A stretch of 64,000 nucleotides of DNA from an uncultured Planctomycetales bacterium (GCA_964438075.1 CAYTIW010000007.1:1-64000); one strand, 5' to 3'. Numbered from the stretch's first letter, positions 9,916 to 25,850 are shown. Notes: generated from the letters alone by a model not told the origin. Numbers and translations: made by a program.

Positions 9916-9978
9916 ATTTAGTTCTTATGCGGATGTGTTTTATCTGAGGCTGCTAGAGGTGAGGGAGAAAAGCGTTCT

Positions 9979-10248: not shown

Positions 10249-10263
10249 GATTAGAGGGAGGCC

Positions 10264-10482
10264 ATGTTAGCTGAAACATTCATTATTATTACGGTAATGT
10301 TCATAGCTGTTATGGGGCCGAACGTCGTCATCGGTATGCTGGGCTATGCCGTGATCAAAGCGCTAAGTAGAAATCCCTCTGCCGCTTCCAAGATCTTCGG
10401 AGCGATGGTCATCATGTTGATATTCGTGGAGGCGATATCGATCGTGGCCATGATGGTGATTTTCCAACTTTTTGCGAGGTAA
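10264..10482 (+). CDS. atpE: F-type ATPase c subunit (proteolipid) homolog
   Basis: 72-aa two-helix hairpin. Polar loop RNPS (where E. coli has RQPD) and conserved carboxylate in helix 2 (LIFVEAISIV). GGGAGG RBS. Confidence 0.8.
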   Translation: MLAETFIIITVMFIAVMGPNVVIGMLGYAVIKALSRNPSAASKIFGAMVIMLIFVEAISIVAMMVIFQLFAR

Positions 10483-10485
10483 TCG

Positions 10486-10716
10486 ATGCAATTTCAGTAT
10501 TGGCCCGAAGGATTGATATTTATAGCCCTGTTCACGTTTATTATCGGGTTCCCCTGTGTCATGGTGGCTATATTGGGAACAAAACTTATTAATTATATAG
10601 GTCAGTATCCGTCCAAGTGTGCCAGGCGTCAGATGATAGCGTGTTTGCAGCTTTTTGTGATTGAGCTGATCTCGTTCGCGATCTTGGCGCTTTTTTATCA
10701 TATCTTTTCCGATTAA
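10486..10716 (+). CDS. Small 2-TM membrane protein between the c and b genes (AtpI/AtpR-like position; function unknown)
   Basis: 76 aa with two hydrophobic segments and Arg residues (ARRQMIA) next to the second helix. Starts 4 nt after the c-subunit stop. Far too short to be subunit a. Confidence 0.5.
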   Translation: MQFQYWPEGLIFIALFTFIIGFPCVMVAILGTKLINYIGQYPSKCARRQMIACLQLFVIELISFAILALFYHIFSD

Positions 10717-10730
10717 CAAAGGAGCCGGTC

Positions 10731-11486
10731 ATGACGTTCGAATTGATCGTTGGATTCTTCATACTAAATGCCCTTGTTACAGGGGCTATTATTCTGGCCC
10801 TGCACTGGGTCTTTGTTTCCAGTGTCGACGGAGCCAAACAAAGGCTGGAACGCGATGCCGAGTCTGCCCGGGCCCGCGAGGCGGAACTTAACCGCAAGAT
10901 CAGGCAGGCTGATGAAGAGCTAACGGCCCGGAAGAAAGAACTCGACCTTGTCGAACAGCGGATGAAAGGCCAGCTTGAGCAAGAGACCGAAAAACACCGG
11001 GAAGACCTGGTAAACAAGGCCCGTAGCGAGGCTGAAGAGATCATCGCCAAAGCACAGATAGCGGCTGAAGGTTTGCGCAAGGAGGCTGAGAAACAGATGG
11101 AGATAAAGATCATCGATTATTCGACCAGGATACTTAACGAGATCTTTTCTAGAAAGGCCAAAGCGGCTTTTGAAAAAGATCTGGTCGAAGAGTTCGTTTC
11201 CCAACTTAAAGAGATCGATATGTCCAAGATCAGCCTCGAGATCAAGAAGGCCGAAGTGGTTACCGCCTGCGGGATATCCGATGAGGACCTGAAACGTATT
11301 GCGGATATGGTCAGGGTAAAGACCGGCCGCGACATAGCTTTGGAGACCAAGGTGTCGGATGAGTTTGTGGCCGGGGTGGTGGTCAAGTTCGGCAGCCTGC
11401 ATTTGGACGGAAGCGTGCGGAACGCCATTCGGGAATCGGCGTTAGCCCTAAAAGGCGAAGTTGATAAGGGGAATTTACGAAAGTAA
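10731..11486 (+). CDS. atpFH: F-type ATPase b subunit fused to the delta (OSCP) C-terminal domain
   Basis: N-terminal TM helix, then an A/E/K/R-rich coiled coil (b-like), then a C-terminus ...VAGVVVKFGSLHLDGSVRNAIRESALAL matching the delta C-domain GG-I-R-GD-V-DGSV signature. 251 aa. Confidence 0.7.
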   Translation: MTFELIVGFFILNALVTGAIILALHWVFVSSVDGAKQRLERDAESARAREAELNRKIRQADEELTARKKELDLVEQRMKGQLEQETEKHREDLVNKARSEAEEIIAKAQIAAEGLRKEAEKQMEIKIIDYSTRILNEIFSRKAKAAFEKDLVEEFVSQLKEIDMSKISLEIKKAEVVTACGISDEDLKRIADMVRVKTGRDIALETKVSDEFVAGVVVKFGSLHLDGSVRNAIRESALALKGEVDKGNLRK

Positions 11487-11498
11487 AAAGAGCTCGTA

Positions 11499-13791
<2,293 letters not shown>

Positions 13792-13793
13792 AG

Positions 13794-15539
13794 ATGTTGA
13801 AGTCAGCGGTAAATAAAGCAGTATGCGAAGCGCTTCTCAAAAGTACTCTTTTGGACGAGCCTAACCTCCAGAAATATGCCGCTGAGGCCCATCGGCTGAA
13901 CCAGAAGATATCCTTTTACCTCGTCCAGCAAGGCATTTTGAAGACCCCCGCCGTTCTCCGGGCCTTGGCAGAACATTTCCACTTGGATATCGTCAATCTG
14001 AAGACGGTCAATGTCGACCGTATGGCCATCGACCGGGTCCCGGTCAAGTTCGCTTCCTATTACCGATTCATGCCCTTGGCCGTGGACGGGAACCGTTTGA
14101 CAGCTGCTGTTTCGGAACCGCTGGATATACATAATCAGGACGACATACGCGCGCATTTAGGCCTGGAACCGCGTTTTGTCCTGGCCTCGCCGTGGGATAT
14201 CGATGAAGCTCTGAAGCGTTATTACGGCCTGGCTTCCGAGACCATTGACCAGATATTGACCAAGGACCCGCAGAAACGGTCGGCCTTTTCCGAAGACCGT
14301 TCTTCCAAGATAGAGGATATCGAGAAGCAGAGCGAAGACCCGTCGGTCACTAAACTGGTCAATCAGATCATTTTGGAGGCCTACCAGAAGCGGGCTACGG
14401 ATATCCACATCGAACCCTACCGTAACCGGGTCCGTTTCCGCTATCGTATCGACGGGGTTCTGCTCGATGCCAATCTCCCTCCGGAAGCAAAGCATTTTCT
14501 CCTGGCCATAATATCGCGTATAAAGATCATGGCCAACCTGACCATCACCGAGAAGCGGCTTCCCCAGGACGGGAGCGCGGTGGTACGCGTGAAGGAACAG
14601 GCCCTGGACCTGCGCGTTTCAACCATCCCCACCCAGCACGGGGAGAGCATGGTCATACGACTTTTGCCGACCACTACCACGCTGCTGGACCTGGAGAAGC
14701 TAGGGTTTAATGCCGATAATGCCAGCAAGTTCAGGGAACTGATACGCCATCCGCATGGCGTTATTTTTGTTACGGGGCCTACCGGTAGCGGAAAGACCAC
14801 CACCTTGTACGCCTGCCTGAACGAGATCAACGACCCGACCCGCAAGATCATCACTATCGAGGACCCGATAGAGTATGAGATGGAGGGGATCACTCAGATA
14901 CAGATCAACTCCGGCATCGATTTCGGTTTCGCGACCGGCTTGCGCAGCATCCTGCGGCACGATCCGGACATCCTCATGGTGGGAGAAGTGCGGGACCGGG
15001 AGACGGCCGACATCGCTATTCGTACTGCCCTGACCGGCCATTTGGTGTTCTCCTCGCTGCACACTAATGATGCCGCAACCGGGGTGACACGCTTGGTTGA
15101 TATGGGGGTGGAACCTTATCTGGTGGCCTCGAGCGTGCAAGCTTTCATTGCCCAGCGTTTGGTGAGGGTCATATGCCCGCAGTGCAAAGAGGAGGACCGC
15201 GAGCCGCTGATGGAGATAAGGAAGGAGATAGCCAGGAGTTTAGGTTTCTCCTCGCTGGATGAAATAAAATTCTTCAAGGGCCGGGGCTGTGACCAATGCA
15301 ACAATACGGGTTATTATGGCCGTACGGCTATTTATGAAATATTGGAGATAACCGAAGCCATCCGCTCCGCGATCCTGGACAAGCCGAGGGCGGAAGAGAT
15401 AAAACGCATAGCCGTACACGGAGGGATGCGCACGCTGCGGCAGGACGGCTGGAAGAACGTTATAGCCGGTGTTACCACTCCGGCCGAGGTCTTGAACGTA
15501 ACGCTTAAGGAGACGGCTGGGGCATCCTCCGCGGTCTAG
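13794..15539 (+). CDS. gspE: Type II secretion / type IV pilus assembly ATPase (GspE/PilB family)
   Basis: N-terminal GspE_N-like region, Walker A GPTGSGKTT, Asp-box, His-box, and a C-terminal tetracysteine CPQC...CDQC. The start codon is 2 nt after the atpD-like stop. Confidence 0.9.
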   Translation: MLKSAVNKAVCEALLKSTLLDEPNLQKYAAEAHRLNQKISFYLVQQGILKTPAVLRALAEHFHLDIVNLKTVNVDRMAIDRVPVKFASYYRFMPLAVDGNRLTAAVSEPLDIHNQDDIRAHLGLEPRFVLASPWDIDEALKRYYGLASETIDQILTKDPQKRSAFSEDRSSKIEDIEKQSEDPSVTKLVNQIILEAYQKRATDIHIEPYRNRVRFRYRIDGVLLDANLPPEAKHFLLAIISRIKIMANLTITEKRLPQDGSAVVRVKEQALDLRVSTIPTQHGESMVIRLLPTTTTLLDLEKLGFNADNASKFRELIRHPHGVIFVTGPTGSGKTTTLYACLNEINDPTRKIITIEDPIEYEMEGITQIQINSGIDFGFATGLRSILRHDPDILMVGEVRDRETADIAIRTALTGHLVFSSLHTNDAATGVTRLVDMGVEPYLVASSVQAFIAQRLVRVICPQCKEEDREPLMEIRKEIARSLGFSSLDEIKFFKGRGCDQCNNTGYYGRTAIYEILEITEAIRSAILDKPRAEEIKRIAVHGGMRTLRQDGWKNVIAGVTTPAEVLNVTLKETAGASSAV

Positions 15540-15634
15540 TGCCTTTTTGCCCATTTTTACTTCAGCCCCCTGTCCTGGTGTTTTGCATCGTTGGGATCGT
15601 TCGATGACTCTAAATAATGAAAGGGGCCGGTCCC

Positions 15635-16846
15635 ATGCCGGTTTTTGCCTATAAAGCCAAAAAAGACAATGCTGAGACGGTCCTGGGCGATATCGTGGCC
15701 CGGGATGCCAACGAGGCTATCGAGATGGTCAGCCGTCGCGGTCTCTTGCCGGTCGCCGTTGAAGAGAAGGAAGGAGAGGGTGCGGCATCTGTATTGGGAT
15801 TGTCTGCCGGAAATGTCCGTCGAAAAGACATCATGGTGTTCACGGGGCAGTTGGTGAGCTTGCTGAAGGCCGGGGTCCCTCTTCTGCAATCGATAGAACT
15901 GTTGTCAAGGAAGACACGCAACGCCAAACTAGCCTATGTTCTGTCCGATATCGCGCTGAACATACGCAACGGCAAAACTTTCTCCGCAGGACTGGAGGAT
16001 CATCCGGATATCTTTGAGCCCCTGTATACGGCTATGGCCCGGGCGGGTGAGGAAGGCGGGAGCATTCGGGAAATGCTGGCTGAGATGGCTGATTATTATC
16101 GCAAGCAGGAAGATATCGCCCTAAAGGTCCGCGGCGCGCTGACTTACCCGGCGGTCATGTTGGTAGCCGGTATCGGCACGGTCATTTTTGTGCTTACTTT
16201 CGTGCTGCCTAAGATCAAGGTGCTTTTCAAGGATATGCATACGGCGCTCCCCTTGCCAACGGTGATAGTACTCAAGTTGAGCGAGATGGTGCAGAATGGG
16301 TGGCCCGTGATCCTGGCTATTGCGGTCCTGGGCGCTTTATCATGGCAATCCCTCCGTCGCATGGCAGCTTTCCGGAGGGCCGTTGGCCAGGTCATTTTTG
16401 CCTTGCCATGGGTAAGGGAGTTTGCCTTGAAAATAGAGATGCAGAGGTTCACCAGGACCATGAGCTTCCTGCTGGAAGGCGGCATCCCTATATTGCGGGC
16501 TTTGGAGCTGGCCATCCCGACACTGTCAAATGAAACTTTGAAGGATGACCTGGGCAAGTGCAAAGATATGATAGCGGACGGCGCCACCTTTGGGGACACG
16601 CTAAGACGTTCCGTTCTCATACCTGATATAGTGCCGTCATTGGTAGCGGTAGGGGAAGAGGCCGGCGCGCTCGCACAATCACTCAGGGATATAGCGGAGA
16701 CTTACGAGCAGGAGATCGGCGAAAGCACCAAGGCCATGTCGACCCTGCTGGAACCGCTCCTGATTCTCCTGGTGGGATCGGTGATAGCCTTCATTGTTTT
16801 TGCTATGTTGATGCCTATATTTCAGATGGATATTTTCGCCCAATGA
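15635..16846 (+). CDS. gspF: Type II secretion inner-membrane platform protein (GspF/PilC family)
   Basis: Start MPVFAYKAKK... is typical of GspF. Two GspF-domain repeats with three TM segments. The ORF track extends 6 codons upstream, but an RBS favours 15635. Confidence 0.85.
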   Translation: MPVFAYKAKKDNAETVLGDIVARDANEAIEMVSRRGLLPVAVEEKEGEGAASVLGLSAGNVRRKDIMVFTGQLVSLLKAGVPLLQSIELLSRKTRNAKLAYVLSDIALNIRNGKTFSAGLEDHPDIFEPLYTAMARAGEEGGSIREMLAEMADYYRKQEDIALKVRGALTYPAVMLVAGIGTVIFVLTFVLPKIKVLFKDMHTALPLPTVIVLKLSEMVQNGWPVILAIAVLGALSWQSLRRMAAFRRAVGQVIFALPWVREFALKIEMQRFTRTMSFLLEGGIPILRALELAIPTLSNETLKDDLGKCKDMIADGATFGDTLRRSVLIPDIVPSLVAVGEEAGALAQSLRDIAETYEQEIGESTKAMSTLLEPLLILLVGSVIAFIVFAMLMPIFQMDIFAQ

Positions 16847-17685
16847 CCCTGACATGGAAGTTCATAGCGCCGGTGGCCGTGTTATGGTTAGTTATGGTTA
16901 TGGGCCCCGCGCGGGCCGTTGAAGAGCCATTTCGTGAACTTAAGGGCGATCATTTTATTGTCAAATATTTGCTTGAGGATGAACGCAGCCGGGCTGTCCA
17001 GATATTAACCCGCGCGGAGTTATATTATAAGAGGGTGGCTGAAAGTATCGGTTATAACCGTTACCAGGAATACTGGACTTGGGAACGGCGCGTGACCGTA
17101 GTTCTTTATCCTGACCAACTGTCCTACGCCAAGTTCACCGGACAGCCACAGTGGTCCAAGGGGTATGCCAGCCGGGATTCCAAACTGTTCAGGACCAAGG
17201 TGATCGTTTCCTATGATGGCCAGCCTGAATTCCTGGAGGAGATATTGCCGCATGAGATCGCACATTTGATCCTGTGGGATTTTCTCGGATTTACCCGTAA
17301 GGTGCCGATATGGTTCGAGGAGGGCTTGGCCCAGCGGGAGGAGGATGGCAAGAGAGCCGTTGTGCAGCAGGCCATGAAGGAAGTTGTCATTTCCGGGAAC
17401 GATATCCCTTTTGCCACCTTCCATGGACTGGATGTGGGCAGGATCACGGACCCGGTGCAGGTTTCATTGTTCTATGCCCAAAGTCTCTCGGTGGTGGAGT
17501 TCATGATCGGTAAATACGGCCGTGATGCTTTCAGGAACTTTTGTCGTGAGATACGGGAAGGCCGGGCGTTCGAGGAGGCTTTGCCCCGCGCCTACCCGGC
17601 CATCTTTCGGACGGTGGATGATCTGGGATCGAAATGGAAGAATTATATGCAGAATGAAGTTGTTTCTTCAGGAGGCGGGCTATGA
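16843..17685 (+). CDS. Secreted gluzincin-like metallopeptidase (HExxH ... E), family uncertain (Peptidase_MA-like)
   Basis: Signal peptide. HEIAHLILWDF followed about 18 aa later by WFEEGLAQ, giving thermolysin-like zinc ligand spacing. Overlaps the gspF stop (ATGA). Confidence 0.5.
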   Translation: MTLTWKFIAPVAVLWLVMVMGPARAVEEPFRELKGDHFIVKYLLEDERSRAVQILTRAELYYKRVAESIGYNRYQEYWTWERRVTVVLYPDQLSYAKFTGQPQWSKGYASRDSKLFRTKVIVSYDGQPEFLEEILPHEIAHLILWDFLGFTRKVPIWFEEGLAQREEDGKRAVVQQAMKEVVISGNDIPFATFHGLDVGRITDPVQVSLFYAQSLSVVEFMIGKYGRDAFRNFCREIREGRAFEEALPRAYPAIFRTVDDLGSKWKNYMQNEVVSSGGGL

Positions 17686-18089
17686 ATAACAGCAGAGGGT
17701 TCACGCTGGCAGAGATAATGCTGGTGGTCATCATAATAGGGGCCTTGGCGGCCATGGTCGTCCCCCGCTTGTCCGGCCGGTCCGAACAGGCCCGTATCGC
17801 CGTAGCCAAGGCGGATATAAAGACCAACATCCCTACCGCTTTAAAAATGTACGAGTTGGACAACGGAATGTATCCAACTACAGAGCAGGGTCTCCAGGCT
17901 CTCCGGGAAAAACCATCGTCCGCCCCGGCCCCCAGGTATTGGCACGGGCCTTATTTGGAACAGGATCCGGTGGACCCTTGGGGTAATCCTTACTTTTACG
18001 AATCACCGGGGACCCATCGCTCAGATTACGACTTATATTCCAAAGGCAAGGACCAGAATTCTCCCGATGGTTACATCACCAACTGGTAA
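17682..18089 (+). CDS. gspG: Major pseudopilin GspG (T2SS)
   Basis: Prepilin leader plus GFTLAEIMLVVIIIG. Conserved GspG core LDNGMYPTTEQGLQAL...GPYL...DPWGNPY.Y.SPG...YDL.S.G.D...DI.NW. AGGAGG RBS. Confidence 0.9.
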   Translation: MNNSRGFTLAEIMLVVIIIGALAAMVVPRLSGRSEQARIAVAKADIKTNIPTALKMYELDNGMYPTTEQGLQALREKPSSAPAPRYWHGPYLEQDPVDPWGNPYFYESPGTHRSDYDLYSKGKDQNSPDGYITNW

Positions 18090-18528
18090 CAGGACCGCCC
18101 ACCGCCGAAGCTTTTTCCCGGACTCAAGGGTGGGGCTGACTTTCGTCGAGGTCATGGTCACCTCGGTAATACTATCGGCGGGGCTGGTGGCGATTTACCG
18201 GTCTTTCTTCATCGCAGCTGACGTCGTGCAGCATCTTTCCAACCGGCTTTACGCCCTGAATCTGCTGGAAAACAAGATCACAACGATAGAAAGGGATTTC
18301 CGGTCGCGGAAAGATTTCGATATCGGCCCCTTGACTGAAGACGCCGTGGTGAATAATCATCCCGTGGTTTTTCAGTATCGAGTGGAACTAAAGCCGGTGG
18401 GCAGTCTTCTGACAGTGTTCCAGCTCGACATTTCCTTGTCCTGGGAGGAAAGGGGAAGGTTTCGGAGCGTTTCCCGTTCGGCCTATTTTTCCGGTGTGAC
18501 CCCCTTGGAAAAGGGGGATGCCTCATGA
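18067..18528 (+). CDS. Minor pseudopilin (GspH/GspI-like)
   Basis: G|LTFVEVMVTSVILSAGL N-terminal methylation-type hydrophobic helix after a basic leader. Operon position. The exact start is uncertain. Confidence 0.55.
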   Translation: MVTSPTGNRTAHRRSFFPDSRVGLTFVEVMVTSVILSAGLVAIYRSFFIAADVVQHLSNRLYALNLLENKITTIERDFRSRKDFDIGPLTEDAVVNNHPVVFQYRVELKPVGSLLTVFQLDISLSWEERGRFRSVSRSAYFSGVTPLEKGDAS

Positions 18529-19148
18529 GCTTTCGACACGAAAGGGGCCTTATGAAATCCTGCCGTAACTCCGGCTTTACTCTGGCCGAGGTCCTTTTGG
18601 TAACGGTCCTTTTCGCTTCCATAGGGCTGGTAGTTTTCAACTGCCTGAACAATGGCCTCAAACTATGGATGAGGAGCCAGAGCCTGGTTGACGAGCAGGA
18701 TGCGATCGTTTTCTTTGACCGTATAGCCGGGCATTTGCGCAACGCCTTCCTTTATTCAGAGATCCAATTTGCCGGAGAGCCTGAACGGCTGGCATTCCCG
18801 ACGGTTGTTTATACCCCAGCGGACCGGGCAAGTTCGCGTGCCTGGGAAGGATACGTGGAACAGATAGGGATGGTCCGGTATTCCTTTGATGTCGCCCGAG
18901 GCAATGTCTTGCGTGAAGAGGCTGATTATTCTCTCGCCACCCGGGGCAGCTTCGGCCCGGCGAGAGTGGAAGTAAAAGGGGTCAAAGACCTCCGTTTCAG
19001 GTATTACTACTCCGGACACACAGAACCTTCCTTGACCGCTCACGATCAAAAGGCGCTGCCGGCCGGGGTGGAGGTGGAGATACGTTTGGCGGGAGACGGC
19101 GCTGAGAAGGTGTTGAAACGCTATGTGCCTATCCCGGCGGGGAGTTGA
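18525..19148 (+). CDS. Minor pseudopilin (GspJ-like)
   Basis: NSG|FTLAEVLLVTVLFASIGLVVF prepilin-type N-terminus. 207 aa. Overlaps the neighbouring genes. Confidence 0.55.
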   Translation: MSFRHERGLMKSCRNSGFTLAEVLLVTVLFASIGLVVFNCLNNGLKLWMRSQSLVDEQDAIVFFDRIAGHLRNAFLYSEIQFAGEPERLAFPTVVYTPADRASSRAWEGYVEQIGMVRYSFDVARGNVLREEADYSLATRGSFGPARVEVKGVKDLRFRYYYSGHTEPSLTAHDQKALPAGVEVEIRLAGDGAEKVLKRYVPIPAGS

Positions 19149-19149
19149 T

Positions 19150-20178
19150 ATGCGGGTATCGTCCAGCCAAGGCGGTTTTATATTGATCTTTACTCTGTGG
19201 GTGCTTGGTTTTCTTTCCGTTCTGGCTATCGCCGTCGGAATGGGTTCCCGGCAGAAGATCGCTTTTCTGGAAAGGCTGGAAGACCGCAGCCGGCAGCACC
19301 TGTCCGCAGAGGCCGGGGCCAAGAAGGCGCTCGCTTTGTTGGTCGACGATATCGAGAACAACAAGTTGGCTTTTAACGCCGAGGCCAAGTCCCGTAGGCA
19401 TAATAATCCGGCTGATTTCTCCGGCATTGTTGTCGGCGATAACGGATTCGATGTCTTACACACGGTTTATGACGAAACATCCGGCGCCATGGTGGAACGC
19501 TATGGGGTTTCCGACGAGCAGGGAAAACTCAACCTTAACAACGTCAGTGGCGAACAGCTGGCCAGGCTCTTGGCAGACGTTTTGGGCATGACGACCGAAG
19601 AGGCGCGGAAACAGTCCCAGGCTATTATAGACTGGCGCGATTATGGCAAACATGAAGCCGAAGGTTTTTTTAGCGACGATTATTATAAGAATCTCGAGCA
19701 TCCTTATGAGATGAAGGAGAAGCCCTTCGAACGCATCGATGAACTCTTGCTGGTGAAGGGGCTTGATAATAATAAGTACCATAAATTGCTGCCGTTCGTC
19801 ACGGTATGGGGAGATGGCAGGGTGAACATCAATACCGTTTCGGAGAGGGTCCTCGTTGCGCTGGGGCTGGATCCGGCAGTGGCAGAAAAGGTCCTTAAGG
19901 TCCGCCGGGGAACGGATGACCTTGAATCTACCAGCGACGACCATATATTCACCCGGGCTTTTGATGTTGCCGTTGAGGTCAAGGCGGTCTTGCCTCTGGA
20001 AGAACGCGAGATGCGGCAGATCGACGCCCTTAACACCCGCGGGCTGTTGTCGGCCAATTCTTTTTTGTATTCCATTCGAAGCCGGTCATTGCTGGCTGAC
20101 GGAAAAACAGGCGGGGCAGAAGTGAACATGGTTTTTGATGCTTTGGCCAATAAAATCGTATTCTGGTTCGAAAAATAA
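19150..20178 (+). CDS. gspK: Minor pseudopilin GspK-like
   Basis: N-terminal hydrophobic helix GGFILIFTLWVLGFLSVLAIAVG. About 340 aa with HhH-like segments (ERVLVALGLDPAVAEKVLKVRRG). ATG at 19150 has a GGGGAG RBS; the ORF track begins at 19123. Confidence 0.5.
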   Translation: MRVSSSQGGFILIFTLWVLGFLSVLAIAVGMGSRQKIAFLERLEDRSRQHLSAEAGAKKALALLVDDIENNKLAFNAEAKSRRHNNPADFSGIVVGDNGFDVLHTVYDETSGAMVERYGVSDEQGKLNLNNVSGEQLARLLADVLGMTTEEARKQSQAIIDWRDYGKHEAEGFFSDDYYKNLEHPYEMKEKPFERIDELLLVKGLDNNKYHKLLPFVTVWGDGRVNINTVSERVLVALGLDPAVAEKVLKVRRGTDDLESTSDDHIFTRAFDVAVEVKAVLPLEEREMRQIDALNTRGLLSANSFLYSIRSRSLLADGKTGGAEVNMVFDALANKIVFWFEK

Positions 20179-20244
20179 ATCAGTTTTGGGTTGATTGACG
20201 GAAAAAGCTTAGTCTATAATGTAGCCATCAAATGCGGAGAAAAC

Positions 20245-21744
20245 ATGAAGCTTAAGCGGTCGCGATTCGTCAGCATAGCCATAAGTGCGACTTCGGTAAA
20301 GGTCGCTCTGATCAAAAGTTCAGGTTCCGTCGAGAGACTGGTAATCCGTAATATCGACAAGGGCAGTCCCGACAGCGCGCTGCAATCTGCTCTCACCGGC
20401 CTGCCAGTGAAAGGCGCGGATATCCTTTGTGTGATCCCGGGTGAGGTGGCGACTACCAAGAACTTGGAGATCCCCTCAGTCGATCATGAAGAAATTGAAT
20501 CTATCCTGGCCCTGCAGGCCTCCCGGCATACTCCTTTCAACAAAGACGAGATATTGACCTCTTATATCAAACTCGGCAACCCGAGATCAAATTTTACCCG
20601 GGTATTAATGATCGTTGTCAAACGGGACACCGTGAAAGATAAACTGGCTATCATCAAGCGCGCCGGTCTCAATATCAGCACGGTCATGTTCGTGCCTGAG
20701 GGCGTTGCGCGTTTTTATGCCGCGGCTCTCAAGGTGAAGAAGAACGATCTGCCGCTTGCGATAGTCGATGTCGGACTGCAGAACACGAATTTCATGATCG
20801 AATCGCAATCCACGATCGTGATGTCACGCAATATACCCATTGGCATTCAGCAATTTGGCACCGACACTGAAGCGTCCAACTTTCTGGTCAAAGAGATCAA
20901 GGCCTCCATGGATACTTATGAACAGGAGTCCGTCGACCGCAAGCCGGGACGTTTTATCCTTACTTCTAAACATGTGGCCTTGTCCGGGTTGGAGACGCAC
21001 ATCGCGGCCATTATGCCCGGCGCCCGTTGCGAAATCGTACCCTACCAGAATTTAGTGAAGTCAGGCAAGGAGGTTAAAGAAGTACTGGCGAAGAGTTTTT
21101 CCGATGATTCCGCGCTGGACGTCATCGCTCCGGCGGTGGTGGCGGCGAAATGTCAGGCCGAACTGGTCCCGCAGGATATCAAGGACCAGCGGGCGATCGT
21201 TGAAAAGGGACGGGCGACCTATATAGCGGGTGTGCTGATCACGCTTTTGTTGCTTTCGGTAGGAGGGGCTGTGATGAGCAAACTTTATTACAAGGATACT
21301 TTCCTGAAAAGGAACCTGATCGCCAAGTACGCCTCCCAAAAGCAGGAAGTCAAGGACATCGAGACTTTGATGCGCAAGACCAAGATCCTGCGTGAATATA
21401 TGCAGACCCGCGACATAGCGCTGGAATCTATCCGTGAACTCTATCGGCTCACTCCACCGGAGATCTATTTCAATAACATCAGCCTGGATGAGGCTGACGG
21501 CAGTGTTTCGATCCAGGGGATAGCCGATGACATGTCGAACGTGTTTTCCTTCGTGCCCGCACTTGAGGCGTCCGCATTGTTCGAGGGAGTTAAGACCAAG
21601 TCCACTTCGACGAAGAAAGACCGTGAAAAGACCGTGGCGGCATTCGAGATCGTGATGCAGTTGAGCAACCCCGACGGCAGAACAAAAGCCAAGCCGGTGA
21701 GTGAGGCGTCGGCTTCACCGGCGAAAACTGAGAAGGCAAAATAA
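20245..21744 (+). CDS. GspL/PilM-PilN-like bitopic assembly protein (cytoplasmic actin-like domain, one TM helix, periplasmic domain)
   Basis: N-terminal region resembles the PilM/GspL cytoplasmic domain. Single TM helix (YIAGVLITLLLLSVGGAVM) at about residue 340. ATG at 20245 has a GGAGA RBS. Confidence 0.55.
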   Translation: MKLKRSRFVSIAISATSVKVALIKSSGSVERLVIRNIDKGSPDSALQSALTGLPVKGADILCVIPGEVATTKNLEIPSVDHEEIESILALQASRHTPFNKDEILTSYIKLGNPRSNFTRVLMIVVKRDTVKDKLAIIKRAGLNISTVMFVPEGVARFYAAALKVKKNDLPLAIVDVGLQNTNFMIESQSTIVMSRNIPIGIQQFGTDTEASNFLVKEIKASMDTYEQESVDRKPGRFILTSKHVALSGLETHIAAIMPGARCEIVPYQNLVKSGKEVKEVLAKSFSDDSALDVIAPAVVAAKCQAELVPQDIKDQRAIVEKGRATYIAGVLITLLLLSVGGAVMSKLYYKDTFLKRNLIAKYASQKQEVKDIETLMRKTKILREYMQTRDIALESIRELYRLTPPEIYFNNISLDEADGSVSIQGIADDMSNVFSFVPALEASALFEGVKTKSTSTKKDREKTVAAFEIVMQLSNPDGRTKAKPVSEASASPAKTEKAK

Positions 21745-21755
21745 GGAGTCCCGCC

Positions 21756-22391
21756 TTGATCAATAATTTTATATCCGGACTGAAACCGGGCCAAAGGAAG
21801 GTGCTGGCGGTCCTGGCCGTTGTGCTCATATTGGGCCTGTTCGGGGGCATATTCCTTTATCCGGCTTGGAAAAGTTCGAACAAGATCGACGAATTGATCG
21901 CCAAGGAAAAGGAGACCGTCCGTAAGAACGCCCTTTTCTTGGCGAAACGCGAAAAAGCCGTGAAGGAAGCCGCGGTGTTCAAGGATTATTTCACTAAAGA
22001 TGTGCGGAGTGAAGAGGAGGTGATCGCGGACCTTCTCAAGAGGCTTTTGCAGCTGGCCAATAATTCCGGGGTGCAGGTATCTAAACTTTCCACGCCTGTG
22101 CAGGAAATGCAAAAGGATTATCTATTGTATGTGGTTTCGGCAGACTGTACGGGCACATTAGAAAACCTGACCAATTTTATCTTCGCGATAAACAACTCCC
22201 CGGAATTGATCAAGGTCTCCAAGATGCACCTGGGGAGCAGTGCGAATGCCAAGAATGCCGGAACCATACAGGCCAGTCTGACCATATCCAAGATGATCAT
22301 CGGTGCCGATCCATCCGTCGAGGCAAAGAAACTTGTACGTGTCCAGGAAAAGAAAGAAGCGGCGAAGCCCGCTGCCACATCCAAGGAATAG
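21756..22391 (+). CDS. GspM/PilO-like bitopic protein
   Basis: Single N-terminal TM helix (VLAVLAVVLILGLFGGIFLY), then a ~180-aa periplasmic domain. TTG start with an AGGAG RBS directly after the GspL-like gene. Confidence 0.5.
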   Translation: MINNFISGLKPGQRKVLAVLAVVLILGLFGGIFLYPAWKSSNKIDELIAKEKETVRKNALFLAKREKAVKEAAVFKDYFTKDVRSEEEVIADLLKRLLQLANNSGVQVSKLSTPVQEMQKDYLLYVVSADCTGTLENLTNFIFAINNSPELIKVSKMHLGSSANAKNAGTIQASLTISKMIIGADPSVEAKKLVRVQEKKEAAKPAATSKE

Positions 22392-22425: not shown

Positions 22426-23232
22426 ATGTCTCCACCATCCCGGATATTAATTAAGAAATCATTCCTTGTCCGCCTGATCTTCCTCCTGGTCTATTTCTGG
22501 TCCTTGCCTTGCCCGGCGGTGGAGGTCACGAAGGAGAATCTATTCCAGCTGGCCACTTTGGCTCTCAAGGATGGGGAATATGAGCATGCGGTGGAGTTCT
22601 TCAAAAAAGCCATCGAGTTAGATCCTAAATTCATCCCGGCCTACAACAGCCTCGGCATAATTTATGAGACCTCTGGTTTAAAGGACCTTAAAGAGGCGAT
22701 CCGTTATTTCAAACTGGCCACGGAGATATCCCCGTCGTCTCAGGAGAGCTGGAACAATCTGGGCCGCGCCTATTACAGCAAAGGCGAGTTCACCCAGGCG
22801 GAAAGGGCCCTTTTGCGTTCATTGGAGCTCGATCCGGCCCAGCCGGAGGTGGAGGTCTCGTTGGGATGGATCTATCTGCTGGGCCAGTCGCGAGGTGCCG
22901 AGGCTATCAGTCATTTTGAAAAAGGCGGGGCGTATAAGGATAACCCCATGGTCTATTACGGCATGGGGCTGTCCTACCTCATCAAGGGTGAGCGTTTCAA
23001 GGTGCTTGATTCCATTACTGAGCTGCGCAAGAGAAAGAGGGAAGACCTCGCGCTCAGGCTGGAGGATATGGTAAAGAACAAGATAAAGCTGTCCTCGCAG
23101 GAGGGTACTCCGTTGATCACGGGCCTGGGGGCTGAACACTCGGCACTGAAAGAGGAACTCAAGGCGATGGGGAGATCTGATGGAGATACCGACGGAATAA
23201 AGGTGCGGTTGCGGGGGCCGATCCGGTATTGA
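22426..23232 (+). CDS. TPR-repeat protein with N-terminal signal/anchor
   Basis: Hydrophobic N-terminus, then at least four TPR-like units (AVEFFKKAIELDPKFIPAYNSLG..., AIRYFKLATEISP..., AERALLRSLELDP...). The start codon is uncertain and the frame is open from 22303. Confidence 0.55.
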   Translation: MSPPSRILIKKSFLVRLIFLLVYFWSLPCPAVEVTKENLFQLATLALKDGEYEHAVEFFKKAIELDPKFIPAYNSLGIIYETSGLKDLKEAIRYFKLATEISPSSQESWNNLGRAYYSKGEFTQAERALLRSLELDPAQPEVEVSLGWIYLLGQSRGAEAISHFEKGGAYKDNPMVYYGMGLSYLIKGERFKVLDSITELRKRKREDLALRLEDMVKNKIKLSSQEGTPLITGLGAEHSALKEELKAMGRSDGDTDGIKVRLRGPIRY

Positions 23233-23287: not shown

Positions 23288-24949
23288 ATGGGACAGCTGG
23301 TTAACAGGATCAATAAATATTTCCTTGACCGGGCAGAGTTGTGGATACTGGGCCTGGGCATTTTGCTGCGATTGAAGCATTACCTCGAGAACCGTTCTTT
23401 GTGGCTGGATGAAGCTTGCGCGGCTGTCAGCGTGGCCAGCCGCAGCTATAACGAGATATTGAGCCATTATGAGGTCATGCCGGAGTTCGCGCACCCTCCG
23501 ATGGTCTTCATGCTGATAGAGCGTTCACTGGTAGACCTCTTCGGCAATAACGAGATGTCATTGCGGTTGTTCCCGTTGCTTTGCGGGATCGCCGCCCTGT
23601 TGCTCTTTTTCCTGCTGACCCGCAGCATCCTTCCGCGGGGGGCGTTCCTGCTGGCACTGGCTCTCTTCGCCGTGATCGACCCCTTGGTCTATTATTCCGC
23701 CGAGCTTAAGCAGTATTCTACCGACCTGGCGGTCATGATAGCTCTTTTGTTCTATAGCGAGGAATTCATCAAGGAGAAATGCTGCTGGATAAAGGCCGGT
23801 GTCCTGGCATTGCTGGGAGCGGCGGTATTATGGCTTTCCAACGCCATGGTCTTTATGCTGGCATCCATGGCCGCGGTATTTCTCTGGAGGGCGGTCAGGC
23901 GCAGGGATTGGGCCGAACTTTTACGTCTGGGGAGCGCCTTTTTTGTGTGGGCGGCCAGTTTCGCGGCGGTTTATCATTTGTCCTTGGGCCATATGGTCGG
24001 GAATGATAAACTTAAGGCTACTTGGGAAGGAGCCCTTTTCAAGGGAAGTCTTTTTTCCGGCGACGCCTTGGCCTGGCTCTGGCAGGTGGTGAGCGAAAGT
24101 TTCCGCAATCCCTTGGGGCTGGCCTGGCCCTTGGCTGGGGCCGTTCTCTTTGTGGTCGGTGTGCTCAGCCTGGTCCGGAACAACTCTGCACGTGCGGCGC
24201 TGCTGGCGTTGCCTATATTTTTTGCTTTGGTGGCCGGCTGGCTAGGCAAGTATCCTTTTCGAGGCCGGGTGCTGCTTTTTTTGGTGCCCTGTTATCTGGT
24301 GCCTATCGCGGCTGGCGTTGAGGCCATAGCGGCAAAGATCGGGAATAAACGCTCCCATCGCGCCGTATGGGCGATATTGGCCATAGCGCTTCTGGCGTAT
24401 CCTCTTCAGGTCGCGGCGCGGAACTTCATTCAGGGCCGCGAATGGGTGGAGAACCGCCCGGCAATGGAGTTCTTTCGGGACCATTATGAGCCGGGGGATT
24501 TCGTGGTGATGAACACCTCGGCCCAGCCGCCGTTCTGGTATTATGTCGGCAGCCTGGGTATCGGGGTCGAACTGCGGCGTGAACCCATCGGCCGGTTGGA
24601 TGGCAAGACGGTGGAAGGGATGCGGGTCGCCAAGTTCGCCCGGGACATGGTAGCCACCAAGGACGGCCACCGTTTGGTAGCTTTCAGGTATGAGTACCAC
24701 ATTTTTAATGAGAAAGGCCTTTTCCGCCAGATGGTGCTCCGTAATGCCCGGGAGGCGTATTTCGTCCGCGACGACAGGGCAGTGGAGGGCCTTCCTGCCG
24801 GGAGGGTCTGGCTGGTGCTGTCCCAAGCCCCGGAGGATGACGACCGCGAGATCAACGGCATCATCCGGGATGCGTTTGACCGGCGGGCGAAAAGGCTGCT
24901 GAGCTGCGAACGTATGAATGCAGCTGTGTACTTATATGACATGCAATAG
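23288..24949 (+). CDS. GT-C fold membrane glycosyltransferase (ArnT/PMT-like, GT39/GT83-type)
   Basis: 553 aa, about 11 predicted TM helices. DE motif directly after TM1 (WLDEACAAV), typical of PMT/ArnT-type enzymes. Soluble C-terminal domain. Followed by a polyprenyl-phosphate sugar synthase-like GT2 gene. Confidence 0.5.
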   Translation: MGQLVNRINKYFLDRAELWILGLGILLRLKHYLENRSLWLDEACAAVSVASRSYNEILSHYEVMPEFAHPPMVFMLIERSLVDLFGNNEMSLRLFPLLCGIAALLLFFLLTRSILPRGAFLLALALFAVIDPLVYYSAELKQYSTDLAVMIALLFYSEEFIKEKCCWIKAGVLALLGAAVLWLSNAMVFMLASMAAVFLWRAVRRRDWAELLRLGSAFFVWAASFAAVYHLSLGHMVGNDKLKATWEGALFKGSLFSGDALAWLWQVVSESFRNPLGLAWPLAGAVLFVVGVLSLVRNNSARAALLALPIFFALVAGWLGKYPFRGRVLLFLVPCYLVPIAAGVEAIAAKIGNKRSHRAVWAILAIALLAYPLQVAARNFIQGREWVENRPAMEFFRDHYEPGDFVVMNTSAQPPFWYYVGSLGIGVELRREPIGRLDGKTVEGMRVAKFARDMVATKDGHRLVAFRYEYHIFNEKGLFRQMVLRNAREAYFVRDDRAVEGLPAGRVWLVLSQAPEDDDREINGIIRDAFDRRAKRLLSCERMNAAVYLYDMQ

Positions 24950-24960
24950 GAAGAAATGAT

Positions 24961-25767
24961 ATGGCTATTGAAGTAGCGGTGATCATCCCGAGCTATAATG
25001 AACGTCCCAACGTCAAACCCATGCTGGAAAAACTAAGGGTTGCGCTCAATGGTATAGAGTGGGAAGTGATATATGTTGACGATAATTCTCCCGACGGCAC
25101 AGCTGAATGCGTATGGGAAGAGTCGCGCCTCGACCCAAGGGTCCGCTGCCTCAAGCGTATCGGCCGGCGCGGCCTGTCTTCCGCCTGCATCGAGGGCATG
25201 CTGTCCACTGCGGCGCCGTTCATGGCGGTGATGGATGGCGACCTTCAGCATGATGAAACTATCCTGCCCGATATGCTGGGGGCCCTCAGGACGGGAAAAG
25301 TGGATGTCATCGTCGGGAGCCGTTATGTGGCTGGGGGGGGCATAGAGGATTGGGCATTGCATCGCCAAGCGGCCAGCCGGTGGGCCACGCGTTTCGCCCA
25401 GTCAGTGGCCGGCATCCAGCTGCAGGACCCGATGAGCGGTTTTTTCATGCTGCGGAGGGATTTCTTCCAGAAATGCGTCGGTCAAATAAGCGGCAAAGGA
25501 TTCAAGATACTGTTGGATATCCTGATGTCTTCGCGGGAAAAGGTGAATGTGATAGAGATACCTTACAAGTTCCGGATGCGCCAGCACGGTAAAAGCAAGC
25601 TGACGCCGAAGGTCATCCTGGACTATTTCTACCTGGTGTTCTACAAGATCTGCCAACGCAATCCTTGGTTGCTCTGGTTACTGGTTTCCACTGTGATATT
25701 GCTGATGCTGGCGCTAGGGGCGCGCATGCACCTTTCCACCCCGATGGTAAAGACGACCTGGTGGTAA
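24961..25767 (+). CDS. GT2 polyprenyl-phosphate glycosyltransferase (Dpm1/ArnC/GtrB-like)
   Basis: VIIPSYNE...YVDDNSPDGT...DGDLQHDE (DxD region), a GT-A fold, and C-terminal TM helices as in ArnC/GtrB. Confidence 0.75.
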   Translation: MAIEVAVIIPSYNERPNVKPMLEKLRVALNGIEWEVIYVDDNSPDGTAECVWEESRLDPRVRCLKRIGRRGLSSACIEGMLSTAAPFMAVMDGDLQHDETILPDMLGALRTGKVDVIVGSRYVAGGGIEDWALHRQAASRWATRFAQSVAGIQLQDPMSGFFMLRRDFFQKCVGQISGKGFKILLDILMSSREKVNVIEIPYKFRMRQHGKSKLTPKVILDYFYLVFYKICQRNPWLLWLLVSTVILLMLALGARMHLSTPMVKTTWW

Positions 25768-25810: not shown

Positions 25811-25850
25811 AAAAAAACCTTCTTCCGGAATGGAAGAAGGTTTTTTGTTT
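25811..25850. terminator. Bidirectional rho-independent terminator (9-bp GC-rich stem CCTTCTTCC/GGAAGAAGG, 5-nt loop, flanked by an A-run and a T-run)
   Basis: aaaaaaaCCTTCTTCCggaatGGAAGAAGGttttttgtttt, lying between the end of the + operon and the tRNA on the minus strand. Confidence 0.8.

What the first reader, a model, noticed from the sequence alone, without database searches (positions are those of the whole stretch)
13794..22391. T2SS-like gene set without secretin, GspC or prepilin peptidase, but with an embedded gluzincin-like protease
GspE, GspF, GspG, two minor pseudopilins, GspK, GspL-like and GspM-like proteins are present in canonical relative order. There is no GspD secretin, GspC or GspO/PilD in the 64 kb. 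A secreted HExxH...E protein occupies the slot between gspF and gspG. Either the outer-membrane conduit is encoded elsewhere, for example upstream of the giant gene, or this pseudopilus machine works with a different outer component.
Basis: partly seen in the sequence, partly recalled or inferred. Interest (0 to 1): 0.6.

Follow-up and report, generated by a model that had tools for sequence, protein, structure and literature searches.

The report
Split type II secretion operon, Omnitrophota
This is the inner-membrane and pseudopilus half of a type II secretion system that is conserved across the uncultured phylum Omnitrophota; its outer-membrane half sits beside it in some relatives, so probably lies elsewhere in this genome, and one lineage has added a small zinc protease inside the operon.

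Summary
Window 13794-22391 encodes GspE, GspF, a signal-peptide gluzincin (Peptidase_MA_2), GspG, GspI-like, GspJ-like, GspK, a PilM-PilN fusion (GspL analogue) and GspM. No secretin, GspC or prepilin peptidase occurs in the 64 kb or in 10 kb beyond the right end.

The organism is a Candidatus Omnitrophota bacterium, and the same gene order recurs in dozens of species. In several relatives a GspA-like ATPase, a GspC and a ~600-aa secretin are attached to this operon. One relative has the textbook order GspC-GspD-GspE-F-G. The window therefore holds one module of a split T2SS, not a secretin-less machine.

The operon follows an F-type ATPase gene set with a 2-nt gap. That linkage is published (Seymour et al. 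2023), where the cluster is labelled type-4a pilus.

The gluzincin is the new element. It sits at about half of the GspF-GspG junctions sampled independently of it, is as conserved as GspF, and keeps an intact HExxH...E site. Family members also sit in a dcw cell-wall cluster and next to peptidoglycan-binding genes. I favour a role on the cell's own envelope over secreted cargo, but only weakly.

Interest is moderate: a new variant of a known kind.

The parts
13794..15539 (+). GspE-type assembly ATPase with an N-terminal MshEN/N1E domain, a Walker A motif (GPTGSGKT) and two CxxC motifs
   Evidence: Pfam T2SSE 437 bits and MshEN 69.7 bits. NCBIfam GspE 588 bits and PilB 577 bits, both below their cutoffs. 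Motifs found. The start codon lies 2 nt after the stop of the ATPase beta gene.
15617..16846 (+). GspF inner-membrane platform protein
   Evidence: Two T2SSF domains, 199 bits. TIGR02120 GspF scores 325 bits against 267 for PilC models.
16843..17685 (+). Gluzincin metallopeptidase of 280 aa (Peptidase_MA_2) with a Sec-type signal peptide. HEIAH lies at 137-141 and the third zinc ligand is E160.
17682..18089 (+). GspG major pseudopilin, with cleavage motif G|FTLAE and the C-terminal DPWGNPY...YDL...ITNW signature
   Evidence: TIGR01710 154.6 bits, above the 88.85 cutoff. Pfam T2SSG 110.9 bits. Median 63% identity across 55 relatives. Alignment.
18067..18528 (+). GspI-like minor pseudopilin (G|LTFVE)
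   Evidence: hhalign against E. coli GspI gives 92.7% probability over 103 columns. Against GspH only the N-terminal helix aligns.
18525..19148 (+). GspJ-like minor pseudopilin (G|FTLAE)
   Evidence: hhalign against E. coli GspJ gives 90.6% probability over 164 columns. Weak T2SSJ and gspJ hits.
19123..20178 (+). GspK minor pseudopilin (G|FILIF, no Glu+5)
   Evidence: Pfam T2SSK_1st 59.4 bits against a cutoff of 26.2. NF037980 85 bits.
20191..21744 (+). PilM-PilN fusion: cytoplasmic actin-like domain, one TM segment (340-366), periplasmic PilN domain. This is the topology of GspL and MshI.
   Evidence: Pfam PilM_2 over residues 63-222 and PilN over 415-490. TM prediction.
21756..22391 (+). GspM/PilO-type bitopic assembly protein
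   Evidence: T2SSM_b 25.2 bits against a cutoff of 21.7. NF040576 GspM 39 bits.
22426..23232 (+). TPR protein with a signal peptide. The ORF is listed from 22303, but the likely start is the ATG at 22426. It resembles PilW and Tgl only weakly.
   Evidence: Several TPR families. TIGR02521 PilW 56 bits and Tgl 48 bits, both below cutoff. A TPR gene follows GspM in at least 15 relatives and follows the secretin in L117.
8449..13791 (+). F-type ATPase gene set directly upstream: alpha, epsilon, c, a 76-aa 2-TM protein, a b-delta fusion, gamma and beta. No subunit a.
   Evidence: Pfam hits. Alpha and beta pass the NCBIfam atpA and atpD cutoffs. The set is adjacent to GspE in 51 of 80 loci and in 17 of 21 informative loci. 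The linkage is reported in PMC10066038.
7087..8433 (+). Conserved 448-aa protein of unknown function with an N-terminal and a C-terminal TM segment; a low-confidence model shows long helices. It precedes the ATPase genes in relatives.
   Evidence: No family hit. TM segments. Orthologues found in 28 loci.
1..7083 (+). 3' end of a giant ORF. Roughly 160 tandem 13-residue repeats (GINWxDIxxLSxT) are followed by a C-terminal tail of about 230 aa without the repeat.
   Evidence: Translation. All recovered contigs break inside this ORF.
23288..25767 (+). PMT_2 (GT-C) and GT2 glycosyltransferase genes that close the co-directional gene string
   Evidence: Pfam hits.
25812..25846 (.). Strongest terminator-like hairpin in 6.5-26.2 kb: a 16-bp bidirectional stem
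   Evidence: It lies just after the GT2 gene. Gene gaps from 7083 to 25767 are at most 77 nt, and no terminator-like hit of comparable strength lies between them.

Best explanation
Window 13794-22391 is the inner-membrane and pseudopilus module (GspE, F, G, I, J, K, an L-analogue and M) of a type II secretion system that is conserved in Candidatus Omnitrophota.

Mechanism, inferred from established T2SS biology:
- GspE sits on the GspF / PilM-PilN / GspM platform.
- It polymerises GspG under a GspK-I-J tip into a short periplasmic pseudopilus.
- The pseudopilus pushes folded periplasmic proteins out through a secretin.

In this lineage the outer-membrane module (GspA-like AAA_22 ATPase, GspB-like protein, GspC, ~600-aa GspD secretin) and the prepilin peptidase are encoded away from the operon. 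This is inferred from relatives and is not shown for this genome.

A periplasmic gluzincin endopeptidase was inserted between gspF and gspG in one large sub-lineage and is translationally coupled to both. I commit, weakly, to it being an accessory enzyme that acts on the cell's own envelope, for example clearing or processing peptidoglycan-associated protein where the machine crosses the wall. The main alternative is that it is a secreted substrate.

The module lies in an unbroken co-directional gene string, probably co-transcribed. The string runs from the giant repeat protein, through a conserved membrane protein and an F-type ATPase set lacking subunit a, then this T2SS module, a TPR protein and two glycosyltransferases.
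For: Gene identities are established.

Taxon and conservation: 58 homologues of the protease are almost all Omnitrophota. In 80 genome loci seeded on the protease, the order ATPase - GspE - GspF - HExxH - GspG - I - J - K - PilMN - GspM recurs, and 69 of 82 protease ORFs have GspG within 700 nt downstream.

Evidence that it is a T2SS:
- GspG passes its equivalog cutoff and carries the GspG C-terminal signature.
- GspK passes the Pfam cutoff.
- No PilT or PilA-type pilin was found among the window ORFs scanned.
- A T2SSC-domain GspC lies directly upstream of the secretin in L147 (29.6 bits against a cutoff of 27). This gives the order GspC-GspD-GspE-F-G-I-J-K-L-M.

Evidence that the outer-membrane module is mobile relative to this operon:
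- It follows GspM in L164, L131 and L127. In L138 only the GspA-like gene follows GspM.
- It lies 4-5 kb downstream in L011, L017/L117 and L035.
- It is on another contig of the same MAG in L029 versus L028.
- A family of about 600-aa secretins, annotated Omnitrophota wherever a source gives a name, has 1199 hits.
- The secretin - AAA_22 - 158-aa trio is conserved.

Evidence on the protease:
- Intact active site.
- Confident model with a gluzincin fold.
- As conserved as GspF: 37.5% against 38.6% median identity.
- ATGA overlaps with both neighbours.
- Family members sit between murG and murC in a dcw cluster (L079). Others sit beside PG_binding_1 and OmpA-LysM genes in V. archaeovorus LiM and two other species, and one sits beside a secretin-GspA operon (L029).
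- These relocated members keep 20 or 21 of the 22 residues invariant in the 23-sequence alignment, including the HExxH...E site, and nest inside the T2SS-linked clade.

Operon structure: inter-gene gaps are at most 77 nt and the single strong terminator lies at 25812-25846.
Against: - The rest of this genome could not be searched, so the secretin, GspC and PilD are inferred rather than seen.
- No PilD homologue appeared in any of about 170 related loci.
- No secretin on the window's 80,129-bp contig appeared among the 120 listed secretin hits. That list is truncated, so this is inconclusive.
- The platform proteins score as PilM/PilN/PilO rather than GspL. GspE is equidistant from the GspE and PilB models. 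Seymour et al. classify the cluster as type-4a pilus.
- GspH is missing.
- For the protease, the closest solved folds are secreted proteases (M9, M30), which suits a cargo role. It is absent from about half of independently sampled operons, so the machine does not require it. I know of no peptidoglycan hydrolase with this fold (my own knowledge, not a tool result).
Confidence: 0.68

Rival explanations
1. The gluzincin is the dedicated secreted substrate of this T2SS. It would be exported to the periplasm by Sec, pushed out by the pseudopilus, and used to digest surface proteins of a prey or host cell.
For: It has a Sec-type signal peptide and is a single soluble domain. Its nearest solved folds are secreted endopeptidases: Vibrio and Clostridium M9 collagenases and M30 lugdulysin. 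It is absent from about 20 of 41 independently sampled GspF-GspG junctions, so it is dispensable for the machine. In L165 it lies nearby but outside the operon core. From established knowledge, T2SS loci often carry their substrate, for example stcE-etp, sslE-gsp(beta) and pulA-pul. Omnitrophota are proposed to be predators or parasites (PMC10066038).
Against: It is as conserved as GspF and holds a fixed slot with overlapping start and stop codons, which is unlike typical variable cargo genes. Family members with 20 or 21 of the 22 alignment-invariant residues, including the catalytic site, sit inside a dcw cell-wall operon and beside PG-binding/OmpA genes. Those are odd places for a prey-digesting enzyme.
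Confidence: 0.3
2. This is a type-4a-like adhesive or motility pilus, functionally coupled to the neighbouring F-type ATPase, and not a secretion system. This is the reading of Seymour et al. 2023.
For: The alignment proteins hit the PilM, PilN and PilO models. GspE scores almost equally as PilB. TXSScan-based annotation in PMC10066038 calls these clusters T4aP and notes the co-location with the ATPase. That co-location is reproduced here in 51 of 80 and 17 of 21 loci.
Against: The major subunit is a GspG equivalog, not a PilA-type pilin. The tip set is GspI/J/K. No PilT was found in the window. Relatives carry a T2SSC-domain GspC next to the secretin in canonical gsp order. ATPase alpha and beta pass the canonical atpA/atpD cutoffs and fail the Mycoplasma gliding and F1-like models.
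Confidence: 0.15
3. In this lineage the system is genuinely secretin-less. The pseudopilus would work only in the periplasm, or would borrow another conduit such as the RcpA/'GspD' secretin of the Tad-like locus reported upstream of Omnitrophota giant genes.
For: No secretin or GspC lies within the window, in its 10-kb right flank, or within 10 kb in the closest relatives such as L001, L002, L093, L098 and L107. West-Roberts et al. report a gspD/rcpC-containing locus preceding giant genes (10.1101/2023.11.21.568195), and a giant ORF lies directly upstream here.
Against: More distant orthologous operons keep a dedicated GspA/C/D module. A secretin module exists elsewhere in at least one MAG that has the same operon (L028/L029). 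From established knowledge, secretins are commonly unlinked, as with pilQ, and shared prepilin peptidases are commonly unlinked too.
Confidence: 0.12

Closest known systems
Classical Gsp type II secretion system (E. coli/Klebsiella gspC-O, Pul)
   Same: It has GspE, GspF, GspG, GspI, GspJ, GspK and GspM in the canonical relative order, with class III signal peptides. Relatives carry GspC-GspD immediately upstream of GspE, together with GspA- and GspB-like genes.
   Different: Here GspC, GspD and GspO are not in cis. GspH is absent. GspL is replaced by a PilM-PilN fusion. A gluzincin gene sits between gspF and gspG. The operon follows an F-type ATPase set with a 2-nt gap.
Omnitrophota 'type-4a pilus + symbiotic F-type ATPase' clusters (Seymour et al. 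2023, PMC10066038)
   Same: The ATPase-plus-filament arrangement and the taxon match, so this is most likely the same locus type. The paper reports the adjacency in 56 of 111 Velamenicoccia species. I reproduced it here.
   Different: The paper labels the cluster T4aP and the ATPase Mycoplasma type-2/3-like. My tests favour T2SS (GspG, GspK, GspC in relatives). They also show alpha and beta passing the canonical atpA/atpD cutoffs. A text search of the paper found no mention of a peptidase or of a secretin.
MSH (mannose-sensitive haemagglutinin) pilus system
   Same: An MshEN domain on the ATPase, a fused PilM-PilN-like protein (as in MshI), and in relatives an AAA_22 ATPase (as in MshM), a secretin (MshL) and a TPR protein (MshN).
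   Different: The major subunit and tip set are Gsp-type. A GspC with a T2SSC domain is present in relatives. No MshA-type pilin is present.
M9 collagenase, M30 hyicolysin and M1 aminopeptidase catalytic domains (clan MA gluzincins)
   Different: Only 10-16% identity. It is a minimal 250-aa domain with no activator, PKD, CBD or N-terminal M1 domains. The Pfam family is Peptidase_MA_2, for which I found no characterised member.
Secretion-system-embedded cell-wall enzymes (for example the T6SS TagX L,D-endopeptidase, the T3SS/T4SS lytic transglycosylases, GspA/B-ExeA/B)
   Same: The concept matches: an envelope-remodelling factor encoded inside the machine's operon. The protease family recurs next to peptidoglycan genes.
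   Different: The fold and catalytic type differ. No activity on peptidoglycan has been shown. This is an analogy drawn from my own knowledge.

Membership tests
Type II secretion system (Gsp) | GspE-family assembly ATPase | tested here: met
   Pfam T2SSE 437 bits. TIGR02533 scores 588 bits, just under its 630 cutoff, and PilB scores 577. The superfamily is certain; the GspE versus PilB subtype is ambiguous.
Type II secretion system (Gsp) | GspF platform protein | tested here: met
   Two T2SSF domains. The GspF model outscores the PilC models.
Type II secretion system (Gsp) | GspG major pseudopilin | tested here: met
   TIGR01710 scores 154.6 bits against a cutoff of 88.85. The C-terminal GspG signature is conserved.
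Type II secretion system (Gsp) | Minor pseudopilin tip complex GspI-J-K | tested here: met
   T2SSK_1st is above its cutoff. hhalign matches E. coli GspI and GspJ at 92.7% and 90.6%.
Type II secretion system (Gsp) | GspH minor pseudopilin | tested here: not met
   There is no ORF between GspG and GspI. The GspI-like profile matches GspH only over the N-terminal helix. Some relatives do have a GspH-like gene (L128, L155).
Type II secretion system (Gsp) | GspL and GspM assembly platform | tested here: met
   GspM is above the T2SSM_b cutoff. GspL is represented by a PilM-PilN fusion with the same topology, not by a GspL-family hit.
Type II secretion system (Gsp) | GspC | tested here: not met
   Absent from the window. 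Present next to the secretin in relatives L147 (T2SSC 29.6 bits against a cutoff of 27), L131, L164, L117, L011, L035 and L127.
Type II secretion system (Gsp) | GspD secretin | tested here: not met
   Absent from the window and the right flank. Attached to orthologous operons in relatives.
Type II secretion system (Gsp) | Prepilin peptidase GspO/PilD | tested here: not met
   No hit in the window or in about 170 related loci. It is required by the four class III signal peptides, so it is inferred to lie elsewhere.
Type IVa pilus | PilA-type major pilin, PilT retraction ATPase and PilP-PilQ | tested here: not met
   The major subunit is GspG-type. There is no second T2SSE-family gene, no PilP and no PilQ in the window. 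Only PilM/N/O-type domains are shared.
Clan MA(E) gluzincin metallopeptidases | HExxH plus a Glu zinc ligand about 18-30 residues downstream, on a thermolysin-like two-subdomain fold | tested here: met
M9 microbial collagenases | Activator domain plus peptidase domain, with family-level sequence similarity | tested here: not met
   There is only fold-level similarity at 12-16% identity, and the M9 targets are 360-680 aa against 280 aa here. No Peptidase_M9 Pfam hit.
Mycoplasma type 2/3 F1-like ATPases (for the neighbouring ATPase genes) | Alpha and beta subunits reaching the MMOB1660/1670 or MSC_0619/0618 models | tested here: not met
   Scores of 391, 414, 283 and 380 bits fall below the cutoffs of 600, 850, 520 and 570. 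The canonical atpA (521.6 against 484) and atpD (537.9 against 463) cutoffs are passed.

The most novel reading that the evidence does not exclude
The whole co-directional string would be one surface machine for attaching to or attacking other cells. The string comprises the giant 13-residue-repeat fibre protein, a conserved bitopic membrane protein, an F-type ATPase lacking subunit a, the T2SS pseudopilus module, the gluzincin, a TPR protein and the glycosyltransferases. In this reading the a-less F-type rotor serves the export or movement of the fibre rather than ATP synthesis, and the gluzincin opens the wall for it.
Probability: 0.12. Interest if true: 0.85.

Novelty: new variant of a known kind. 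Interest (0 to 1): 0.42.

Why it matters
Omnitrophota are uncultured nanobacteria thought to live as predators or parasites, so their surface machines are the main clue to how they interact with other cells.

This analysis makes three points:
- The published 'type-4a pilus' next to the odd F-type ATPase looks like a split type II secretion system, which changes the function to be expected from it.
- The missing secretin is probably an effect of gene arrangement, not a new biology.
- It flags an uncharacterised, phylum-restricted gluzincin family that travels with the T2SS, with peptidoglycan-binding genes and with the dcw cluster. That family is a candidate envelope-remodelling enzyme of a new catalytic type.

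None of this overturns current understanding of T2SS.

Tried and rejected
- Locating this organism's own secretin by matching the 'longest contig' length of secretin hits to the window's 80,129-bp contig or to relatives' long contigs. No match appeared among the 120 listed of 1199 hits, so the test is inconclusive.
- A first secretin search with a 157-aa C-terminal fragment returned only 14 short, mostly partial proteins.
- Structure prediction of the 448-aa upstream protein. The single-sequence model had pLDDT 40.9 and was unusable.
- The afdb50 fold library was unavailable.
- A regex for the c-di-GMP-binding MshEN motif in GspE found no clean match, so I make no claim about it.
- I looked for a pseudopilin feature that co-varies with the protease. 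GspG alignments from loci with and without the protease show no systematic difference, which argues against a pseudopilin-processing role.
- I tested whether the 159-aa gene beside the protease in V. archaeovorus matches the GspB-like 158-aa gene of the secretin operons. It does not.
- Literature searches for PF13485 and Peptidase_MA_2 found nothing useful.
- I considered the protease as a PilD replacement and rejected it. It has a cleavable signal peptide and a periplasmic soluble domain, whereas class III leaders are cut at the cytoplasmic face.

Full report
**What is there.** The stated interval matches nine tightly packed plus-strand ORFs.

HMM searches identify them as follows:
- GspE: T2SSE 437 bits plus an MshEN domain.
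- GspF: two T2SSF domains.
- A 280-aa Peptidase_MA_2 protein.
- GspG: TIGR01710 at 154.6 bits, above its 88.85 cutoff.
- Two weakly scoring pilin-like proteins.
- GspK: T2SSK_1st above its cutoff.
- A 517-aa PilM-PilN fusion.
- A GspM/PilO-type protein.

Profiles built from orthologues of the two weak pilins match E. coli GspI (92.7% probability, 103 columns) and GspJ (90.6%, 164 columns). The GspI-like profile matches GspH only over the shared N-terminal helix. The pseudopilus set is therefore G plus the I-J-K tip, without H.

All four carry readable class III signal peptides. GspK lacks Glu+5, as GspK proteins do.

The PilM-PilN fusion has a cytoplasmic actin-like domain, one TM segment and a periplasmic PilN domain. 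This is the GspL/MshI topology.

**What is absent.** No Secretin, Secretin_N, T2SSC or Peptidase_A24 hit was found in any sizeable ORF of the 64 kb. A six-frame phmmer scan with E. coli GspD, HofQ, GspC and GspO and with Omnitrophota secretin, GspC and GspA seeds also found nothing.

Identical proteins on other assemblies extend the right flank by 10 kb. It holds only Mrp/complex-I-like and metabolic genes.

To the left, every recovered contig ends inside the giant ORF. What lies upstream of that ORF is unknown.

**Where it comes from and how conserved it is.** Homologues of the protease come almost only from Candidatus Omnitrophota MAGs.

A scan of species-representative genomes seeded on the protease returned 254 relatives. 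In the 80 best loci the following order recurs: [448-aa protein] - F-type ATPase genes - (small MshEN proteins) - GspE - GspF - HExxH - GspG - GspI - GspJ - GspK - PilMN - GspM.

In those loci:
- 69 of 82 protease ORFs have GspG within 700 nt downstream.
- The median GspF-to-protease gap is 13 nt.
- The median gap from ATPase beta to GspE/MshEN is 25 nt.

In the window, the GspF stop and the protease start overlap (ATGA), as do the protease stop and the GspG start. GspE starts 2 nt after the ATPase beta stop.

From the giant ORF to the GT2 gene (1-25767), no inter-gene gap exceeds 77 nt. The only strong terminator-like hairpin lies at 25812-25846.

**Is the protease always there?** The first locus set was seeded on the protease, so I ran a second scan seeded on GspK in metagenome contigs. 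Of 41 loci that cover the GspF-GspG junction:
- About 20 carry the protease there. The script counted 17, plus three with junction gaps of 686-844 nt that hold it.
- About 20 have GspF and GspG less than 170 nt apart, with no room for it.
- One (L159) has an unexplained 1,149-nt gap.

ATPase beta lies upstream of GspE in 17 of 21 informative loci, whether or not the protease is present. The protease is therefore a lineage-specific insertion into an older ATPase-T2SS arrangement. It is not a universal component.

**The outer-membrane half.** In relatives a secretin module is physically attached to this operon:
- L147 reads GspC (Pfam T2SSC 29.6 bits, cutoff 27) - secretin (568 aa) - GspE - GspF - GspG - I - J - K - PilMN - GspM. 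That is the textbook gsp order.
- L131 reads ...GspM - GspC-like - secretin.
- L164 reads ...GspM - MerR - AAA_22 ATPase - GspC-like - secretin (626 aa).
- L127 has the AAA_22 gene and a GspC-like gene right after GspM, up to the contig end. L138 has only the AAA_22 gene there.
- L011, L017/L117 and L035 have AAA_22 - GspC-like - secretin (- TPR) 4-5 kb downstream.

In one MAG the T2SS operon (L028) and a secretin - AAA_22 - 158-aa operon (L029) lie on different contigs.

The secretin - AAA_22 - ~158-aa trio recurs on other Omnitrophota contigs. The 158-aa proteins are homologous, and their C-terminal motif resembles GspB or the GspC HR domain (the resemblance is my reading).

A profile of these secretins finds 1199 proteins of about 600 aa. 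Wherever a source gives a name, it is Omnitrophota.

I conclude that this machine family is a T2SS with a GspA/B/C/D module that moves relative to the E-M module. In the window's sub-lineage that module is more than 10 kb away.

No PilD appears in any locus. From established knowledge, an unlinked and often shared prepilin peptidase is commonplace, as in Pseudomonas PilD/XcpA and Vibrio VcpD.

**T2SS or T4aP?** Seymour et al. (PMC10066038) report 'type-4a pilus' clusters adjacent to a 'non-respiratory' F-type ATPase in 56 of 111 Velamenicoccia species. [quoted passage not shown] By gene arrangement and taxon, that is most likely this locus type.

My tests favour T2SS:
- A GspG equivalog with the DPWGNPY...YDL...ITNW signature.
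- GspI/J/K tip proteins.
- No PilT and no PilA-type pilin in the window.
- A T2SSC-domain GspC in relatives.

The PilM/N/O-type platform and the GspE/PilB ambiguity show that it is not a classical proteobacterial Gsp system. The MshEN domain, the fused PilM-PilN and the AAA_22/secretin/TPR genes in relatives also recall MSH systems.

West-Roberts et al. (10.1101/2023.11.21.568195) describe a different locus, Tad-like with gspD and rcpC, upstream of Omnitrophota giant genes. Such a locus may exist upstream of the giant ORF here, but I cannot see it.

**The protease.** The protein has a Sec-type signal peptide (…GPARA|VEEP) and no lipobox Cys. HEIAH lies at 137-141 and E160 sits in WFEEG.

H137, E138, H141, E160 and about 18 other residues are invariant in 23 homologues and nearly so in 90.

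The AlphaFold2 model is confident (pLDDT 88.7, pTM 0.84). It matches these catalytic domains:

Across 55 operons its median identity to the window protein is 37.5%. That compares with 38.6% for GspF and 24-34% for GspI, J, K, PilMN and GspM.

Family members also occur outside T2SS operons:
- Between murG and murC in a dcw cluster, with overlapping genes (L079).
- Downstream of PG_binding_1, OmpA-LysM and radical-SAM genes in Ca. Velamenicoccus archaeovorus LiM and two other species (L074, L076, L078).
- Beside a secretin-GspA operon (L029).

These members keep 20 or 21 of the 22 residues invariant in the 23-sequence alignment, including the HExxH...E site. They nest within the T2SS-linked clade in a rough NJ tree.

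Sensor histidine kinase genes are inserted between GspF and the protease in at least ten relatives.

GspG does not differ systematically between operons with and without the protease. That gives no support to a pseudopilin-processing role.

**Mechanism and how sure I am.** The following are shown: gene identities, gene order, conservation, the catalytic site, the fold, and the attachment of the C-D module in relatives.

The following are inferred:
- This organism has its GspA/B/C/D module and its PilD elsewhere.
- The module works as a piston-type T2SS.
- The gene string is co-transcribed.

For the protease I weigh two readings. The envelope contexts, the fixed slot and GspF-like conservation favour an accessory enzyme acting on the cell's own wall or on wall-associated proteins where the machine is assembled. 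The collagenase-like fold, the signal peptide, the patchy distribution and the precedents of T2SS operons that carry their substrate favour cargo. I put the accessory role at about 0.45, cargo at about 0.30, and the remainder on other roles.

**Comparison and novelty.** The T2SS parts are ordinary. The split arrangement is unusual for gsp operons but normal for the wider type IV filament superfamily. The ATPase linkage is published.

Three things appear to be new:
- The reassignment of the cluster from T4aP to T2SS.
- The recognition of the mobile GspA/B/C/D module.
- The gluzincin insertion and its association with cell-envelope genes.

Text searches of three Omnitrophota papers on this topic found no secretin or peptidase discussion for this locus, and I found no literature on the Pfam family. 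I therefore rate it a new variant of a known kind, of moderate interest.

Noticed in passing
window 8449-13791: An F-type ATPase gene set (alpha, epsilon, c, a 76-aa 2-TM protein, a b-delta fusion, gamma, beta) ends 2 nt before GspE. It has no subunit a in cis. Alpha and beta pass the canonical atpA/atpD NCBIfam cutoffs, while gamma, delta, epsilon and c are divergent. The adjacency to the T2SS operon is conserved across Omnitrophota and was reported by Seymour et al. 2023, who called the ATPase 'symbiotic'.
   Followed up: partly
window 7087-8433: A conserved 448-aa protein with N- and C-terminal TM segments and no family hit. It precedes the ATPase genes in at least 28 related loci. The single-sequence AlphaFold model failed (pLDDT 41).
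   Followed up: partly
window 1-7083: The 3' end of a giant ORF consists of roughly 160 tandem copies of a 13-residue repeat (consensus G-I-N-W-x-D-I-x-x-L-S-x-T, Trp about 7% of residues). A C-terminal tail of about 230 aa without the repeat follows. All recovered assemblies break inside it. The repeat is not among the domains I saw listed for Omnitrophota giant proteins in West-Roberts et al.
   Followed up: partly
window 23288-25767 and 26087-28618 (-); L126, L129, L142, L146: A PMT_2 (GT-C) and GT2 glycosyltransferase pair closes the operon, and an STT3-type oligosaccharyltransferase lies convergent to it. In four more distant relatives the STT3 and GT2 genes sit between GspM/TPR and a displaced GspK. 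This hints at glycosylation of pseudopilins or of cargo.
   Followed up: no
L008, L009, L013, L026, L034 and about 25 other loci, between ATPase beta and GspE: Many relatives carry one or two stand-alone 150-190-aa proteins homologous to the N-terminal region of GspE (the region with the MshEN domain). Their GspE is also longer, at about 715 aa. The window has neither.
   Followed up: no
L014, L023, L032, L033, L040, L041, L043, L064, L077, L169 and others: PAS/HisKA sensor histidine kinase genes are inserted between GspF and the protease in at least ten relatives. One also lies beside the protease paralogue in L029. This suggests two-component control of the protease-GspG part of the operon.
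   Followed up: no
L079 10001-10780; L074 9893-10831 (Ca. Velamenicoccus archaeovorus LiM, NZ_CP019384.1); L076; L078; L029 3747-4607: Members of the same gluzincin family lie between murG and murC in a dcw cluster, next to PG_binding_1/OmpA-LysM genes, and next to a secretin-GspA-GspB-like operon. In LiM the only family member among the 80 loci kept is not in a T2SS operon.
   Followed up: partly
window 52001-56000: GC content drops to about 0.40 against about 0.53 elsewhere. The stretch holds a HAD hydrolase, two ORFs with no family hit, a diacylglycerol/NAD-kinase-like ORF and the start of QueH. It may be acquired DNA.
   Followed up: no
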